Origin: a virus
Taxonomy: Duplodnaviria > Heunggongvirae > Uroviricota > Caudoviricetes
IMG/VR virus record: IMGVR_UViG_2667527592_000002
Strand: one strand, 5' to 3'
Length of the DNA: 64,000 nucleotides
Each line of letters begins with the position of its first letter. Within the stretch, counting starts at the first letter, position 1. A program made the position numbers and the translations under genes. A model generated the notes under the pieces. That model had not been told where the DNA came from and did no database searches. It saw only the letters and a program-made list of their open reading frames with translations. Positions 16,105 through 38,485 of the stretch are shown one piece after another.

Positions 16105-16296
16105 TCAGTCTCCTTTAGTGCGCAGGTGGTTTTTCCAGCGGTTTTGCGCCGCGCTGCGCTTATCTTTTACTCCCTCTCTGGCAATTCCAGAATATAAGTA
16201 CAACACCACACGGCGATTGCTAACTCTCAACCACTGGCTGGGATAGCAACGTCTGTATACACGGGAAATAAGCATCTTTGCTTTACGGTTTTTCAT
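16105..16296 (-). CDS. small basic protein, tandem paralogue 2 (63 aa)
   Basis: Starts MKNRKAK; about 20 nt at the 5' end identical to neighbouring paralogue. Confidence 0.4.
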   Translation of the reverse strand: MKNRKAKMLISRVYRRCYPSQWLRVSNRRVVLYLYSGIAREGVKDKRSAAQNRWKNHLRTKGD

Positions 16297-16469
16297 CTTA
16301 CTGCGTACCCTTTCTTCCGCCTGTTCTGTGACGCGCTAGGCTTACGCTTTGCGGCAAAAGCCACCTGACCAAATGGATGGAGTACCGCTATCTTATGGTT
16401 GCTGATAACCAGCTCCACCACACGCACAGGTCGCTGTAAAAAAAGTCGTTTTGCTTTACGGTTTTTCAT
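16293..16469 (-). CDS. small basic protein, tandem paralogue 1 (58 aa)
   Basis: Hand-translated: MKNRKAKRLFLQRPVRVVELV...; stop overlaps next ATG (ATGA); below track cutoff. Confidence 0.35.
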   Translation of the reverse strand: MKNRKAKRLFLQRPVRVVELVISNHKIAVLHPFGQVAFAAKRKPSASQNRRKKGYAVR

Positions 16470-16641: not shown

Positions 16642-17121
16642 TTACTCACCTTCTTTGATGCGAATGCCTGCGGCGCGTGGCACATTAACTTCCACGATGC
16701 GCACTGTTGGTTTGTACATCTCAATCGCTGTCAGCCAGTCAGCGCCGGTCATACGCTTTTCTGCATCGCCATTAGTCCACTTAACCGGTACACCAATAGC
16801 CTTCATCGCAATTTCTATTTCCCCGGCAATGGCGCTTTTCCCGCAACCAGTAAAACCAGATACAACGACAAGAACTTCGCCTTTTGCTGGTTTTATTTCC
16901 CGCGCCTCCACCTCTGCAATTCGGCACATAGCATCGATATTTGTGTCTTCCTGGCGTTTAACTTCATCCAATAATGCCAACGCGATATCTGGCGAAAAGT
17001 GCTTCATAAAATCGTTAAGCGCATTAATTCGCTGATCGAAAGGCATTACAGGCGCTTCACCAGCAATTTTTGTTTTTTCAGCAATTTCACGAAGCTTTTG
17101 ATAGTCAATTTTGTTTGTCAT
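16642..17121 (-). CDS. P-loop NTPase-like protein (159 aa)
   Basis: Walker A-like VVVSGFTGCGKSA; start overlaps stop of PAPS-reductase-like gene. Confidence 0.5.
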   Translation of the reverse strand: MTNKIDYQKLREIAEKTKIAGEAPVMPFDQRINALNDFMKHFSPDIALALLDEVKRQEDTNIDAMCRIAEVEAREIKPAKGEVLVVVSGFTGCGKSAIAGEIEIAMKAIGVPVKWTNGDAEKRMTGADWLTAIEMYKPTVRIVEVNVPRAAGIRIKEGE

Positions 17122-17996
17122 GCCACTACCTCTTCGAATTTCAACTCCAATTGGTCACCCCAGATTTCACATGATTCGGAACACGAACCAGTATCAAACC
17201 GCTTGGCCTGCACCATCGCCTGATACAAATTTCTGTAGTCGCTGTCGGCATACATTCTGGCAATCCCGTCAAGCGTCAGGTGACCACGGTACATAACGTC
17301 TTTACCTGTTCTGCGATGACCATCCCTGACGTGTTTGCCTGTAACCAGTTCATTAAAAACCCGCATCAGACCTGGTTCGTCTTTACATGCAAGCCCCAGC
17401 TTTTGCGTTGACTTTTTGATGCAAAAAACACAGTTCCCGAGGTGCTCCGGGATTTGCAAATCAAAAGGTTGTTTTCGCCACCACCGGATAACATCCGACT
17501 TATCAAAATCTGACAGCTCGGCAAGATACCGGACGCCCGGTTTCGGTTTCAGCCTACGGGGTTCGTCCGCACGAATACCCAGCCATGTGATGTAATTCCC
17601 TCGCCCAAAATGGTCATCGCAATATTTCGTGAAAGGGGTGAGTTTTAGCCTGTCAGTACAGAACGCGCCGCCGATGTATGGCGTACCGTACTTTTTAACC
17701 ATGTCCATAAACGGTTTAAGCACCGGCATTCGCGTCTGAATATCCTTTGGTTCCCATTCCGTATAACCATTTGGCTGCCCAAGTTCTGGATTTATATCGA
17801 CCTGCAACACCGTTAGCGGTACATTCCAGAACTTCACAACCTCACGAATAAAGCGATACGTCAGAGGATGTTCACAGCCGGTATCCATAAAAATGAAATG
17901 GACGCTAGCGCCAGCTTTTCGCTGTGCTTCCATCAGATGAACGAGATAAGCCGATGTTCGTCCACCTGAAAAGCTGACGACTTGATGCATACTCAC
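17118..17996 (-). CDS. PAPS reductase-family protein (PP-loop ATP pyrophosphatase fold)
   Basis: VVSFSGGRTSAYL ... IFMDTGCEHPLTYRFI parallels the CysH N-terminal region. Confidence 0.8.
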   Translation of the reverse strand: MSMHQVVSFSGGRTSAYLVHLMEAQRKAGASVHFIFMDTGCEHPLTYRFIREVVKFWNVPLTVLQVDINPELGQPNGYTEWEPKDIQTRMPVLKPFMDMVKKYGTPYIGGAFCTDRLKLTPFTKYCDDHFGRGNYITWLGIRADEPRRLKPKPGVRYLAELSDFDKSDVIRWWRKQPFDLQIPEHLGNCVFCIKKSTQKLGLACKDEPGLMRVFNELVTGKHVRDGHRRTGKDVMYRGHLTLDGIARMYADSDYRNLYQAMVQAKRFDTGSCSESCEIWGDQLELKFEEVVA

Positions 17997-23229: not shown

Positions 23230-23536
23230 ACACTCTCCTTTCGAAATAAACGTACTGATTAATCATGCCCAGGGGCATTTCGAGTTTTTCCGCGATCTCA
23301 CGGCGGGGAACGCCACACTGATGAAGCTGCCGCGCCAGCTCTATATCGCTCTGCCGGTATTTGGCTGACTGGTGAAAGTCACCTTTCAGAATCATGCTGA
23401 TCCCAAGCTCTCGCGCTTTAGTCCTGACGGCATCACCGGTACGACCGATCAGCTTCCCAATACTCTCGACCGTCATAGTTCCGGCGCACTGGCGGAGTAT
23501 CATGACTTCTGCCCTTCCCCATCCCCGCCAGCTCAC
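23219..23536 (-). CDS. HTH DNA-binding protein (105 aa)
   Basis: Two HTH-like segments (IGKLIGRTGDAVRTKARELGI; REIAEKLEMPLG). Confidence 0.5.
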   Translation of the reverse strand: MSWRGWGRAEVMILRQCAGTMTVESIGKLIGRTGDAVRTKARELGISMILKGDFHQSAKYRQSDIELARQLHQCGVPRREIAEKLEMPLGMINQYVYFERRVYEV

Positions 23537-24144
23537 GCAGAACTCCTTCTAACCAAAAGAACGCCATCTTCAGAAACAACGTTGCAGGACTTCAGGTAAT
23601 TCATTGCCTCTTTCGGTAATGGATTCTTTGGATCGGCGTTTGCCAGGGATTTCGATAACCTCATGATAAATTTGATCATTACCTTCTGGCGGAGCTTGTG
23701 CTCATGAGATAAAGAAAGGTAATAGGAAATGGTATGGGCTAAACGCTCACGAAGCTGTTCTGTGCCGTGATATACAGCAGCGATATCACGCAGTGCATTG
23801 ACCAGTTCCCGGTAAATATGTGGAGCAACCTGGCATTCAATGTTGGTTGGTGACTCATAAATTACAGTCAGCCCCAGCTTTTCAGCCAGCGCGTGCTCTG
23901 CACGAGCACCAACCGATTCTTCCCATCGATTGAGCAAATAGATCGCATCAGCAGAACGCACCATTGCCAGGCAAATATCCATGTATTCACTCTGGCAAAG
24001 GCCACCAGGTAACACCGCTGGATTCAGAACGATATGCCCTTCAGCCATCAGCTCGCTCGCTTTCGCATTAAACGCCGCACGGTTGTAATCTGGATAACCA
24101 GTCATCGGCCCCGCGATGTAAATTTTCAAAACACGTTTCACCAT
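23533..24144 (-). CDS. DUF4406-like protein (nucleoside 2-deoxyribosyltransferase-like fold), C-terminal extension
   Basis: N-terminal KIYIAGPMTGYPDYN ... NPA ... WEES.GA motifs; start at ATG 24144, not the longer track extension. Confidence 0.55.
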   Translation of the reverse strand: MVKRVLKIYIAGPMTGYPDYNRAAFNAKASELMAEGHIVLNPAVLPGGLCQSEYMDICLAMVRSADAIYLLNRWEESVGARAEHALAEKLGLTVIYESPTNIECQVAPHIYRELVNALRDIAAVYHGTEQLRERLAHTISYYLSLSHEHKLRQKVMIKFIMRLSKSLANADPKNPLPKEAMNYLKSCNVVSEDGVLLVRRSSA

Positions 24145-24299
24145 CAAAATTTCCCCAAAATCGTGACGCAAAACATAAGCACTGCGAAAAGCTCAATACC
24201 AAGCTCAAGTAGCGCCAACGCCCCGAAAAACAACACATAGAACAGGCCAATCTCATTCACAGATGGCTGGTGGATCGCACTTAAAGCTATAAGCATCAT
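24144..24299 (-). CDS. small membrane protein (51 aa)
   Basis: Hand-translated MMLIALSAIHQ...IGLFYVLFFGALALLELGIELFAVLMFCVTILGKF; stop overlaps next start (ATGA); below track cutoff. Confidence 0.4.
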   Translation of the reverse strand: MMLIALSAIHQPSVNEIGLFYVLFFGALALLELGIELFAVLMFCVTILGKF

Positions 24300-36936: not shown

Positions 36937-37587
36937 ATGGTGAGTCTTTGTGATTTCACGGGGAAAATGGTCGCCCCCTGGCTGGAGCATGGTATAGATG
37001 CTGTTATCGTCGATCCACAACACGCAAAGACCACAGATGAGCTGATGCAATCAGGCGCAGTTCTGACACGTATCAGTGCGATTATCGATAGTGATGAAGT
37101 TTATGCTTTTCTCCGAAATAATTTACAACGTATTGTGTTTTTAGCTGGTTTTCCGCCGTGCACGGACCTTGCTGTTTCCGGTGCGCGCTGGTTTGCACAT
37201 AAGGCTGACAAAGATCCGGTTTTCCAGTTCAAAGCGATGCAAGTCGTCTGGCAGTGTTACGACATTGCAAAGATGATTGGTTGCCCGTACATGATTGAAA
37301 ACCCGGTCAGCCAAATATCGACATTCTGGCGTAAACCTGATCACATCTTCCATCCTTACCACTTCACTGCATATTGCAAGGAAGACAATTACACCAAAAA
37401 AACATGCCTCTGGAGCGGGCAGGGCTTTGTCATGCCTGATGCCCTAATGGACGAATCATTAGGCAAGCCAGATAACAGAATCCATACCGCGCCACCTGGG
37501 CCTGAAAGGGCTAATTTTCGAAGTGCTACTCCGAATGGATTCGCAAAAGCAGTTTTCGAAGCAAATAAGGGGGTGCTCTATGAGTAA
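36937..37587 (+). CDS. short DNA (cytosine-5) methyltransferase-like protein
   Basis: GFPPC (PC catalytic motif), MIENPV (ENV motif); only 217 aa, no obvious target-recognition domain. Confidence 0.45.
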   Translation: MVSLCDFTGKMVAPWLEHGIDAVIVDPQHAKTTDELMQSGAVLTRISAIIDSDEVYAFLRNNLQRIVFLAGFPPCTDLAVSGARWFAHKADKDPVFQFKAMQVVWQCYDIAKMIGCPYMIENPVSQISTFWRKPDHIFHPYHFTAYCKEDNYTKKTCLWSGQGFVMPDALMDESLGKPDNRIHTAPPGPERANFRSATPNGFAKAVFEANKGVLYE

Positions 37588-38485
37588 ATCTCTAGTAAGC
37601 ACAGCCATAGAAAGACATGATTCGATGGCGGAAATTAGCTATATGCGCACCATTCGGACTCCGGATGAATACGAGCGTCCGATCTTCAAATGGGTAGGCG
37701 GTAAATTTTCAGAGTTGCCTATAGTGCTTGAGCATCTACCACACGGTAAGCGGTTAATAGAACCATTCGTTGGTGGCGGTTCCGTATTTACGAATGCAGG
37801 ATTTCGCCACAACCTGCTTAATGATATTAACGGTGACTTGATTAACTTCTATCAGACATTGCAGCGAGAAAGACATTCTCTAGTCACGCTGTCATATAGT
37901 TTTTTCCAAAATTACAACAACGCTGACGCTTACCTCGAAGTGCGTGAGGCATTTAACAGAGGAAAGTATGACCAACTACATCATGCTGCTGCCTTTTTGT
38001 ACCTTAATCGGCACTGTTTTAATGGCGTAACACGGTACAACCAAAATGGCGAGTTCAACGTAGGGTATGGTAAATACAAAGCGCCCTACTTCCCACATGC
38101 AGAGATGGAGGCATTTTTGGCTGATGACGTACTCAAAAACACTTCCTTTGTATCAGGTGACTTTGCTGGCGTCATCGAGGCGGCTGGTGAAGGCGATGTG
38201 ATTTTTTGCGATCCGCCGTATGAACCGCTGCCGGATACAGAAGGGTTTACCAGTTATTCAGGAAATAGCTTCCGTTTCGACGAACAGAAACGGCTGGTAT
38301 CTCTATTGGTGGAAGCCCACCAGCGCGGCGCTAAGGTAGTGATTACAAATAGTGGTGCTCCAAACATCCGTGAACTATATGAAGGAAACGGGTTTAAAGT
38401 ACATCATATGGCAGCCAGACGGTCGGTTTCCTGCAAGGCGTCAACACGTGTAGTTGCTAACGATATAATTGCAATAATGAAGTAA
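37580..38485 (+). CDS. Dam-family DNA adenine methyltransferase
   Basis: KWVGGK, EPFVGGGSVF and DPPY motifs; start overlaps upstream stop. Confidence 0.85.
   Translation: MSKSLVSTAIERHDSMAEISYMRTIRTPDEYERPIFKWVGGKFSELPIVLEHLPHGKRLIEPFVGGGSVFTNAGFRHNLLNDINGDLINFYQTLQRERHSLVTLSYSFFQNYNNADAYLEVREAFNRGKYDQLHHAAAFLYLNRHCFNGVTRYNQNGEFNVGYGKYKAPYFPHAEMEAFLADDVLKNTSFVSGDFAGVIEAAGEGDVIFCDPPYEPLPDTEGFTSYSGNSFRFDEQKRLVSLLVEAHQRGAKVVITNSGAPNIRELYEGNGFKVHHMAARRSVSCKASTRVVANDIIAIMK

What the first reader, a model, noticed from the sequence alone, without database searches (positions are those of the whole stretch)
16642..17996. PAPS-reductase-like PP-loop enzyme translationally coupled to a small P-loop protein
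The 292-aa protein carries the CysH-like N-terminal block (SFSGGRTS, FMDTGCEHPLTYRFI) but sits in a phage early operon with no sulfate-assimilation context. The next gene overlaps its stop and encodes a 159-aa Walker A protein (GFTGCGKSA). PP-loop enzymes of this family in phages and defence islands are linked to nucleic-acid modification (DndC/SspD-like chemistry) or anti-defence functions. No partner cysteine desulfurase or nuclease is evident, so this may be a minimal or novel modification module.
Basis: partly seen in the sequence, partly recalled or inferred. Interest (0 to 1): 0.52.

Follow-up and report, generated by a model that had tools for sequence, protein, structure and literature searches.

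The report
Lambda NinC homologue beside unrelated mini-P-loop gene
The 292-aa gene is a close relative of phage lambda's long-known but mechanistically unsolved NinC protein, a relative of which has been tied to escape from a sulfur-based DNA defence, and its overlap with the small Walker-A gene next door is a local accident of phage mosaicism, not a two-gene module.

Summary
Both ORFs, the quoted motifs and the ATGA overlap are real. The 292-aa protein is 80% identical to phage lambda NinC (Orf290). An identical protein is already in public databases. It is not a metabolic CysH: only residues 4-70 align, and the catalytic ECGLH motif is absent. The family keeps an SGGxxS PP-loop and five invariant cysteines. 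Its nearest characterised relatives by sequence are SspD and BrxP, the phosphorothioation PP-loop enzymes. A homologue 55% identical, fused to a Dam methylase in Vibrio phage 44E38.1, was part of a two-gene transfer that gave a phage escape from a host Dnd system.

The 159-aa protein is a mosaic Ea22-like early protein. Its C-terminus is a roughly 68-aa, almost invariant Walker-A mini-domain with weak fold similarity to P-loop NTPases.

The two genes are not a module:
- Of 80 loci with a close NinC, 3 have the mini-domain gene directly downstream.
- Of 73 loci with the mini-domain, 2 have NinC upstream.
- Overlapping stop and start codons recur at the next junction too.

Verdict: a known family in an ordinary arrangement. 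The anti-defence or nucleic-acid-modification reading is plausible; the "minimal novel module" reading is not supported.

The parts
17118..17996 (-). NinC-family PAPS-reductase-like PP-loop protein (292 aa from the GTG, 290 aa from the ATG at 17990)
   Evidence: ORF. It is 80% identical to lambda NinC over 285 aa. It matches phrog_424 and phrog_33262 at E about 1e-92 and Pfam PF01507 over residues 6-72. The AF2 model has pLDDT 86.9.
17952..17975 (-). PP-loop motif SFSGGRTS (residues 8-15)
   Evidence: SxSGGR[TS]S is present in 33 of 33 family members. S10, G11, G12 and S15 stay invariant down to 28% identity.
17658..17660 (-). Invariant Cys113 (GAFCTDR), at the start of helix 112-130
   Evidence: Invariant. 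Helix position.
17421..17432 (-). Invariant C189-x-x-C192, within GNCxFCxKK
   Evidence: GNCxFCxKK is present in 33 of 33 members. The two cysteines are invariant in distant members.
17169..17183 (-). Invariant C272-x-E-S-C276 on a low-confidence C-terminal tail
   Evidence: C[ST]ESC[ED] is present in 32 of 33 members. C272 and C276 are invariant in distant members. The tail 267-292 has pLDDT below 50.
17118..17121 (-). ATGA overlap of the NinC stop codon and the start codon of the next gene
   Evidence: Sequence.
17129..17132 (-). GAGG Shine-Dalgarno, 7 nt before the downstream ATG, inside the NinC coding sequence
   Evidence: Sequence.
16642..17121 (-). 159-aa Ea22-like mosaic early protein
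   Evidence: ORF. Pfam Ead_Ea22 over residues 4-65, 28.0 bits against a cut-off of 27. phrog_250. The N-terminus is 28% identical to lambda Ea22.
16903..17121 (-). N-terminal Ea22-like helical / coiled-coil part (residues 1-73)
   Evidence: AF2 helices 7-18, 28-40 and 44-73. Ea22 domain architecture from PMC10834534.
16678..16881 (-). Conserved roughly 68-aa mini P-loop-like module (residues 81-148)
16834..16857 (-). Walker-A-like GFTGCGKS (residues 89-96)
   Evidence: G89, T91, G92, K95 and S96 are invariant in the 35-sequence alignment and in about 149 of 150.

Best explanation
The 292-aa gene is the orthologue of phage lambda NinC. NinC is a stand-alone accessory protein of the PAPS-reductase / PP-loop ATP-pyrophosphatase superfamily, and it moves between phages as a single-gene cassette. 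Here it sits in the accessory early operon of a D6/P1-like phage-plasmid.

The most likely role is counter-defence acting on nucleic acid, in three steps:
1. The SGGxxS PP-loop binds ATP and adenylates a substrate phosphate or carbonyl.
2. A cysteine set (C113, C189xxC192) holds a metal or Fe-S centre.
3. The flexible C-terminal CxESC tail delivers or accepts sulfur, as the tail cysteine does in APS and PAPS reductases.

The outcome would protect phage DNA from phosphorothioate-based restriction of the Dnd or Ssp type, or would interfere with that restriction.

Shown here: the identity of the gene, the fold class, the conserved motifs, the absence of CysH hallmarks, the SspD/BrxP affinity, the lack of any fixed partner gene, and the recurrent linkage or fusion to DNA methylases in other lineages. 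Taken from the literature: an anti-Dnd phenotype for a 55%-identical homologue. Inferred only: the chemistry, the substrate and the metal centre.

The downstream 159-aa gene is an independent Ea22-like mosaic early protein that happens to carry a truncated P-loop-like C-terminal module. Its overlap with NinC reflects the tight packing of the operon.
For: Identity:
- 80% identity to lambda NinC.
- An identical protein is already in NCBI, in a cluster of 1130 member sequences.
- The same block is found at 97.7% identity on plasmid pE2863-2.

Fold and motifs:
- AF2 pLDDT 86.9. The best PDB neighbours are APS reductase 2goy (E 9.5e-5) and CysH 6vpu/1sur.
- Invariant down to 28% identity: SGGxxS, xTGxEH, C113, C189, C192, C272, C276 and a set of basic residues (K118, R142, R148, K194, K195, K199, R237).

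Family affinity:
- 33 of 33 family members hit PADLOC SspD (best E 4e-20), 30 of 33 hit BrxP and 7 hit DndC.

Stand-alone cassette:
- In nin regions the gene sits between ninB and ninE with no partner.
- No window neighbour recurs with it.
- It is absent from otherwise syntenic plasmids (rows H33-H35).
- It occurs in 561 of 50,697 phage records, including virulent Chi-like phages.

Link to DNA modification:
- Fusions to Dam PF05869.
- A DNA methylase lies within 5 kb in 25 of 61 diverse loci, against 1 of 78 control loci.

Experiment on a homologue:
- Vibrio phage 44E38.1 p0018 is a PAPS-domain-Dam fusion. Moved together with p0019, it let a phage grow on a Dnd-carrying host (cited as anti-Dnd in PMC13551039).
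- Its PAPS domain is 55% identical to the window protein over residues 3-282.

Independence of the downstream gene.
Against: - No activity has been measured for NinC itself. Lambda ninC is dispensable and gave no yeast two-hybrid partners.
- In the Vibrio experiment two genes were moved together and the PAPS domain was fused to Dam, so the contribution of the PAPS domain alone is unproven.
- All four established phosphorothioation systems need a P-loop NTPase partner. NinC has no conserved one.
- The SspD match covers only the N-terminal half (profile positions 2-121 of 277).
- The methylase linkage is weak in the window's own clade (6 of 79 loci), and my methylase queries came from the diverse loci, which biases the comparison.
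- The PP-loop has Thr or Ser where the canonical SGGxDS has Asp (my knowledge of the motif).
- I could not obtain model coordinates, so the clustering of the cysteines is untested.
Confidence: 0.5

Rival explanations
1. One reading: NinC and the downstream Walker-A protein form a minimal two-component nucleic-acid modification module, with a PP-loop enzyme plus a P-loop NTPase as in DndC/DndD or SspD/SspC.
For: All known phosphorothioation systems pair a PAPS-reductase-domain protein with a P-loop NTPase. The two genes overlap by ATGA with an internal Shine-Dalgarno. The Walker-A motif is under strong constraint, and the model resembles P-loop NTPase cores.
Against: - Of 80 IMG/VR loci with NinC at >=93% identity, only 3 have the module gene directly downstream and 2 more have it within about 1.4 kb.
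- Of 73 loci carrying the module at 96-100% identity, only 2 have NinC within 2.5 kb upstream.
- Lambda and other nin-region NinC genes are followed by ninD or ninE.
- No P-loop gene recurs in 45 diverse loci.
- The module is about 68 aa with 3 predicted strands, far smaller than DndD or SspC.
- The next gene junction also overlaps.
Confidence: 0.05
2. NinC is an auxiliary metabolic gene: a working PAPS or APS reductase (cysH) that boosts host sulfate assimilation, as many virome papers assume.
For: Database names (phrog_424 is filed under 'moron, auxiliary metabolic gene'; RefSeq calls it 'PAPS reductase family'). The fold is closest to APS and PAPS reductases. Virome literature treats it as an AMG.
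Against: - hhalign against E. coli CysH aligns only residues 4-70.
- The catalytic ECG[LI]H motif is absent in 33 of 33 members.
- NCBIfam CysH scores 21.9 bits against a cut-off of 154.
- CysH has one cysteine; NinC has five invariant ones.
- There are no sulfur-assimilation neighbours in any context examined.
- The family scores better against SspD and BrxP than against CysH.
- A homologue is tied to an anti-Dnd phenotype.
Confidence: 0.05
3. NinC is an RNA (tRNA) thiolation or other PP-loop RNA-modifying enzyme of the TtcA/TtuA/TilS type. It would reprogram or protect host tRNAs, for example against anticodon nucleases.
For: PP-loop plus conserved cysteines is the signature of Fe-S-dependent tRNA thiolases. 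Foldseek lists TilS, TtuA and [4Fe-4S]-LarE at E 2-4e-3. NCBIfam gives a weak TilS hit. No DNA-recognition partner is present.
Against: These structural hits are weaker than APS/PAPS reductase and have low TM scores (0.33-0.38). Sequence affinity is to SspD and BrxP. Recurrent fusion or adjacency is to DNA methylases, not to RNA enzymes. The homologue phenotype concerns a DNA-based defence.
Confidence: 0.12
4. NinC counters Dnd/Ssp-type defence without catalysis. It would act as a DndC/SspD mimic that titrates or poisons host modification or restriction complexes.
For: It is homologous to SspD, BrxP and DndC over the N-terminal half. It has no partner genes. A homologue has an anti-Dnd phenotype.
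Against: The nucleotide-binding motifs, five cysteines and many basic residues are invariant from enterobacterial phages to an archaeal MAG at 28-33% identity. That pattern fits an enzyme better than a decoy.
Confidence: 0.12

Closest known systems
Bacteriophage lambda NinC (Orf290, lambdap64)
   Same: 80% identity over 285 aa with no gaps, the same length, and every family motif. Both are dispensable accessory genes of temperate enterobacterial phages.
   Different: Lambda's copy lies in the nin region of the rightward early operon, between ninB and ninD. This copy lies in an accessory operon of a D6/P1-like phage-plasmid, between an ASCH-like gene and an Ea22-like gene. The function of lambda NinC is itself unknown.
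Vibrio phage 44E38.1 p0018 (PAPS-reductase domain fused to Dam; the anti-Dnd determinant of Piel et al.)
   Same: The PAPS-like domain is 55% identical over residues 3-282, with all motifs. It is in the same PHROG, phrog_33262.
   Different: The Vibrio protein carries a C-terminal Dam methylase domain and was tested together with a second gene, p0019, that has no relative near the window's NinC-like gene. The window protein has neither.
SspD / BrxP / DndC (PP-loop sulfur-transfer subunits of DNA phosphorothioation systems)
   Same: These are the best sequence matches among characterised families (SspD E 1.8e-13 for this protein, down to 4e-20 in the family). They share the PAPS-reductase-like fold. 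SspD is of similar size (profile of 277 positions).
   Different: Only the N-terminal half matches. DndC TIGR03183 scores 17.8 bits against a cut-off of 290. No SspABC, DndADE or BrxCZL partners are present.
Assimilatory APS reductase (PDB 2goy) and PAPS reductase CysH (1sur, 6vpu)
   Same: These are the closest solved folds (E 1e-4, TM 0.4-0.5). The shared DTG motif region aligns. Like them, NinC carries cysteine on a flexible C-terminal tail (that these reductases have a flexible tail cysteine is my knowledge of their structures).
   Different: About 20% identity. There is no ECGLH. The C-terminal two thirds do not align. NinC has an SGGxxS PP-loop where CysH has SSSFG.
Lambda Ea22 and the Ea22 variants of Stx phages (exo-xis region, pro-lysogenic)
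   Same: The 159-aa protein shares the N-terminal module (28% identity, E 8e-4) and the last residues, GIRIK(E)GE. It passes the Pfam Ead_Ea22 cut-off. The architecture of an N-domain, a coiled coil and a variable C-terminal domain matches the literature.
   Different: The C-terminal domain is the Walker-A mini-module, not the lambda CTD. That module is not detected in the genes directly downstream of NinC in the Stx-phage-type loci, and the Ea22 papers consulted do not mention a P-loop or Walker motif.

Membership tests
NinC family (lambda Orf290; phrog_424 / phrog_33262) | Full-length similarity to lambda NinC | tested here: met
   80% identity over 285 of 292 aa with no gaps. PHROG E-values 5e-93 and 7e-92.
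NinC family (lambda Orf290; phrog_424 / phrog_33262) | Family motifs SxSGGR[TS]S, DTGxEH, GNCxFCxKK and C[ST]ESC[ED] | tested here: met
   All are present in the window protein and in 32-33 of 33 aligned members.
CysH, PAPS reductase (EC 1.8.4.8) | C-terminal catalytic ECG[LI]H motif | tested here: not met
   Present in E. coli CysH at residue 238. Absent from the window protein and from 33 of 33 family members.
CysH, PAPS reductase (EC 1.8.4.8) | Full-length profile match above the curated cut-off | tested here: not met
   NCBIfam PRK02090 scores 21.9 bits against a cut-off of 154. hhalign aligns only residues 4-70.
CysH, PAPS reductase (EC 1.8.4.8) | Sulfate-assimilation gene context (cysIJ, cysDNC) | tested here: not met
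   None in the window operon or in any related locus examined. Contrast E. coli cysHIJ.
Fe-S APS reductase | Cys-Cys ... CxxC cluster ligands plus an ECGLH tail (features from my knowledge of the enzyme) | tested here: inconclusive
   A CxxC (189-192) and a single upstream Cys113 are invariant, but there is no Cys-Cys pair and no ECGLH. Metal binding cannot be tested here.
DndC | Equivalog profile TIGR03183 above its cut-off | tested here: not met
   17.8 bits against a cut-off of 290.4.
DndC / SspD / BrxP modification systems | Adjacent P-loop NTPase and DNA-binding partners (DndD/E, SspB/C, BrxC) | tested here: not met
   No conserved partner in 80 close and 45-61 diverse loci. The neighbouring Walker-A module is not co-inherited.
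SspD | Full-length similarity to the SspD profile | tested here: inconclusive
   E 1.8e-13, but only profile positions 2-121 of 277 are matched. All 33 family members hit it. PADLOC profiles carry no curated cut-off.
Phage anti-Dnd PAPS-Dam protein (Vibrio phage 44E38.1 p0018) | Homologous PAPS-like domain | tested here: met
   55% identity, E 1e-110, over residues 3-282.
Phage anti-Dnd PAPS-Dam protein (Vibrio phage 44E38.1 p0018) | C-terminal Dam methylase fusion and the p0019 companion gene | tested here: not met
   The window protein ends 15 residues after the CxESC motif. The p0019 homologue is unrelated to the window neighbours.
Phage anti-Dnd PAPS-Dam protein (Vibrio phage 44E38.1 p0018) | Confers escape from Dnd restriction | not testable with these tools
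   Needs plating assays. The only evidence is the literature on the Vibrio homologue.
P-loop NTPase (for the 159-aa protein) | Walker A GxxxxGK[ST] between a beta-strand and a helix | tested here: met
   GFTGCGKS at residues 89-96, with strand 82-89 before it and helix 95-108 after it. Invariant in homologues.
P-loop NTPase (for the 159-aa protein) | Complete alpha/beta core of five or more strands (my knowledge of the fold) | tested here: not met
P-loop NTPase (for the 159-aa protein) | Walker B acidic residue after a hydrophobic strand | tested here: inconclusive
   VRIVE144 has an invariant Glu, but that part of the model has pLDDT 41-59.
Ead/Ea22-like family (PF13935) | Pfam match above the gathering score | tested here: met
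   28.0 bits against 27, over residues 4-65. This is marginal. It is supported by an N-terminal BLASTP match to lambda Ea22.

The most novel reading that the evidence does not exclude
NinC-family proteins are self-sufficient, single-polypeptide DNA sulfur-modification (or phosphorothioate-mimicking) enzymes. They would use only host sulfur donors and work without the ATPase and nickase partners that every known phosphorothioation system needs. They would be a widespread phage countermeasure to Dnd/Ssp/BREX-4 defences, present even in lambda. A side possibility: the roughly 68-aa Walker-A module is a natural minimal nucleotide-binding P-loop that works only when oligomerised by the Ea22 coiled coil.
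Probability: 0.15. Interest if true: 0.75.

Novelty: already known. Interest (0 to 1): 0.3.

Why it matters
For this locus, the result is mainly a correction of annotation and interpretation: it is lambda's NinC in a phage-plasmid, and the attractive 'PP-loop plus P-loop' pairing is an accident of mosaicism.

For the family, the analysis sharpens an old open question. NinC has been sequenced for decades, sits in 561 of 50,697 phage records, and is routinely counted as a cysH sulfur-metabolism gene in virome studies. Yet it lacks the CysH catalytic motif and looks like an SspD/BrxP-type enzyme with five invariant cysteines. One homologue is linked to escape from Dnd.

If the anti-phosphorothioation role holds for the solitary form, virome 'AMG' counts for PAPS reductase would need reinterpreting, and lambda itself would offer a simple genetic test system.

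Tried and rejected
- I replaced it with a database homologue.
- **afdb50 unavailable.** The fold library was not on the machine, so no AlphaFold-database neighbours were obtained.
- **Neighbour clustering.** A clustering restricted to +-3 crudely called genes found no partner in more than 10 of 45 loci, and it missed the methylase link. A targeted tblastn then showed methylases in 25 of 61 loci.
- **Window neighbours as partners.** I tested DUF968, the 230-aa ASCH-like protein, the NinI-like phosphatase, DUF551 and the small ORFs. Each recurs in 12 or fewer of 79 close loci, so all were rejected.
- **The Vibrio p0019 companion gene.** No relative near the window's NinC-like gene.
- **Domain fusions of the mini P-loop module.** Pfam found nothing informative in ten long fusion proteins.
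- **Solved structures.** A PDB sequence search for the 159-aa protein gave only sub-threshold hits, including some P-loop proteins.
- **Literature.** Searches for a NinC function found nothing direct until a citation trail led to the Piel et al. preprint. The journal version could not be read.
- **Cysteine geometry.** Distances between cysteines could not be measured because model coordinates are not exposed.
Full report
**Observation.** The window carries a 292-aa ORF at 17118..17996 and a 159-aa ORF at 16642..17121, both on the minus strand. The downstream ATG overlaps the upstream TGA as ATGA, and a GAGG Shine-Dalgarno sits 7 nt upstream. The next junction is also an overlap (TAATG), and the whole minus-strand block from about 22.3 kb to 13 kb is tightly packed. 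Both genes have thousands of homologues.

**Setting.** The region matches E. coli plasmid pE2863-2 (93 kb) end to end at 97.7% identity, and other 89-98-kb plasmids closely. It matches phage D6, a P1 relative, over 49% of its length. The window is therefore a D6/P1-like phage-plasmid. The two genes lie in an accessory operon that also encodes:
- a NinI-like phosphatase;
- a DUF968 protein that matches the PHROG family labelled HNH endonuclease;
- an ASCH-like protein, a DUF551 protein and a second ASCH protein;
- further along in the related plasmid, an S24 peptidase and Phd/Doc.

Some otherwise syntenic plasmids lack the PAPS-reductase gene (rows H33-H35). It behaves as a variable cassette.

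**What the 292-aa protein is.** It is 80% identical, without gaps, to lambda NinC (Orf290). An identical protein is already in NCBI, in a cluster of 1130 member sequences. NinC is dispensable in lambda and had no two-hybrid partners. I found no paper that assigns it a function.

- *Sequence families.* Pfam sees a PAPS_reduct domain only over residues 6-72.
- *Fold.* The AlphaFold model is confident (pLDDT 86.9, pTM 0.84) except for the last 26 residues. Its best solved neighbours are the Fe-S APS reductase 2goy and the CysH structures. The similarity is modest: E about 1e-4, TM 0.4-0.5, 20% identity.
- *Conserved residues.* Across 33 family members, and again across members down to 28% identity (Chi-like virulent phages, a Pseudomonas phage, a Zixibacteria MAG, an archaeal MAG), these stay invariant: an SGGxxS PP-loop, xTGxEH, C113, C189xxC192, C272xxSC276E, and basic residues K118, R142, R148, K194, K195, K199 and R237. 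C126 is not conserved in distant members.

**It is not CysH.** hhalign against E. coli CysH aligns only residues 4-70. The NCBIfam CysH model gives 21.9 bits against a cut-off of 154. The catalytic ECG[LI]H motif is absent from all 33 members. No locus examined has sulfate-assimilation neighbours.

**Nearest characterised relatives.** Against PADLOC profiles all 33 members hit SspD (best E 4e-20; 1.8e-13 for this protein), 30 hit BrxP and 7 hit DndC. The SspD match covers only the N-terminal half. DndC's curated equivalog model is missed by a wide margin, 17.8 bits against 290. NinC is a separate family that sits next to the phosphorothioation PP-loop enzymes, not inside any of them.

**Is there a partner?** No.
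- Among 80 IMG/VR loci with NinC at 93% identity or more, 3 have the Walker-A module gene directly downstream and 2 more have it within about 1.4 kb.
- Conversely, among 73 IMG/VR loci that carry the module at 96-100% identity with enough upstream DNA, 2 have NinC within 2.5 kb and 1 is directly adjacent. The module-bearing ORFs range from 141 to 303 aa.
- In nin regions NinC sits between ninB and ninE, and in lambda between ninB and ninD.
- None of the window's other neighbours recurs with NinC in more than 12 of 79 close loci.

NinC travels alone.

**Links to DNA modification and defence.** Some homologues are fused to a Dam methylase (P0094, P0106, P0117, P0119). DNA methylases also lie next to or near NinC in several unrelated phages:
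- a Gilliamella P2-like prophage, where D12 and C5 methylases sit directly upstream and the C5 gene overlaps NinC;
- a Chi-like Salmonella phage;
- Vibrio phage vB_VchM-138;
- many Xenorhabdus, Photorhabdus, Providencia, Sodalis and Erwiniaceae prophages.

In total 25 of 61 diverse loci have a methylase within 5 kb. The figures are 6 of 79 in the window's own clade and 1 of 78 in control loci. The methylase queries came from the diverse set, so the contrast is somewhat inflated. A DUF3268 zinc-finger gene is a second recurrent neighbour, in 13 of 61 loci.

The most direct evidence is experimental and comes from the literature. In Vibrio phage 44E38.1 the 479-aa PAPS-domain-Dam protein p0018 was moved, together with p0019, into a sensitive phage. 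The recombinants then grew on a host carrying Dnd. The authors concluded that this is an anti-Dnd system 'related at least in part' to the PAPS domain (cited in the same sense). That PAPS domain is 55% identical to the window protein over residues 3-282. The p0019 companion has no relative near the window's NinC-like gene.

**Mechanism proposed.**
- *Shown:* the fold class, the motifs and the stand-alone inheritance.
- *Inferred:* the PP-loop binds ATP and adenylates a substrate. C113 and C189xxC192 contribute to a metal or Fe-S site. The flexible CxESC tail carries the reactive sulfur, by analogy with the tail cysteine of APS and PAPS reductases. The target is DNA, and the effect is protection from, or interference with, phosphorothioate-based restriction.
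- *Weak points:* every established phosphorothioation system needs a P-loop NTPase partner and NinC has none. The homologue experiment did not isolate the PAPS domain. I could not measure cysteine geometry.

**What the 159-aa protein is.**
- *N-terminal part.* Residues 4-65 just pass the Pfam Ead_Ea22 cut-off and align weakly with lambda Ea22. The two proteins also share their last residues, GIRIK(E)GE. Published work describes Ea22 proteins as an N-domain, a tetramerising coiled coil and a variable C-terminal domain. Their effect is pro-lysogenic and their composition highly mosaic.
- *C-terminal module.* Here the C-terminal domain is a module of about 68 aa (residues 81-148). It has 447 representatives at 50% clustering. 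It is almost invariant, including G89, T91, G92, K95, S96 and E144, and it is attached to unrelated N-termini, usually at the C-terminal end.

It is a truncated P-loop-like module. Nucleotide or phosphate binding is plausible. A complete NTPase is not. Pfam, PADLOC and PHROGs give it no function.

**Verdict.** The central proposal of a minimal novel two-gene module is not supported, and the enzyme is the well-known lambda NinC family. Interest is low to moderate. It comes from the unsolved mechanism of the family rather than from anything special at this locus.

Noticed in passing
window 16678-16881 (-); representatives P0241-P0389: A module of about 68 aa, GEVLVxVSGFTGxGKSAIAGEIEI...EK..T.ADW...YKP.VRIVE.N, is almost invariant across 447 cluster representatives. 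It is joined to completely unrelated N-terminal (rarely C-terminal) sequences in proteins of 110-623 aa. It has no Pfam family and no annotation. It looks like a natural truncated P-loop.
   Followed up: partly
L092-L102 (genome-contig hits): NinC matches at exactly lambda's level of identity (80%) turn up in assemblies of Kitasatospora, Bradyrhizobium, Oceanobacillus, Shewanella, Segatella and others, several on contigs of about 48.4 kb. These are almost certainly phage lambda DNA contaminating the assemblies.
   Followed up: no
L104-L120, L148, L171: A DUF3268 zinc-finger protein lies next to NinC in 13 of 61 diverse loci: Xenorhabdus and Photorhabdus prophages (often in the order NinC - DUF3268 - Dam) and Chi-like Salmonella phage 37. 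It is absent from the window.
   Followed up: partly
window 16105-16296 and 16293-16469 (-): Two adjacent, overlapping small ORFs (63 and 58 aa) both begin MKNRKAK and end in similar basic tails (...SAAQNRWKNH... and ...SASQNRRKKG...). This looks like a tandem duplication of a small basic protein just downstream of the Ea22-like gene.
   Followed up: no
window 16645-16668 (-) and lambda ea22 3' end (L083:2348-2896): The 159-aa protein and lambda Ea22 have unrelated C-terminal domains but end in nearly the same residues (AAGIRIKEGE and DAGIRIKGE). This suggests a conserved recombination joint at the 3' end of ea22-like genes.
   Followed up: no
window 17990-17996 (-): The start codon is ambiguous. 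The GTG at 17996 has an AGGA 7 nt upstream and gives 292 aa. RefSeq annotates the ATG two codons later (290 aa), which matches lambda NinC's start.
   Followed up: partly
window 23533-24171 (-) and L171:4373-4834: The same operon encodes a DUF4406 protein. In Salmonella phage 37 the gene right after the NinC homologue is annotated as a nucleoside 2-deoxyribosyltransferase (Pfam DUF7768). This may be a second nucleotide- or DNA-modification-related neighbour theme.
   Followed up: no
window 37523-38485 (+): A D12-class N6-adenine DNA methylase homologue (40% identical to the Gilliamella prophage methylase that sits next to NinC there) lies about 20 kb from NinC in the window.
   Followed up: no
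L088 (Photobacterium): A 312-aa NinC homologue sits in what looks like a conjugative element, next to a TraN-family gene and a UvrD-type helicase. The family is therefore not confined to phages.
   Followed up: no
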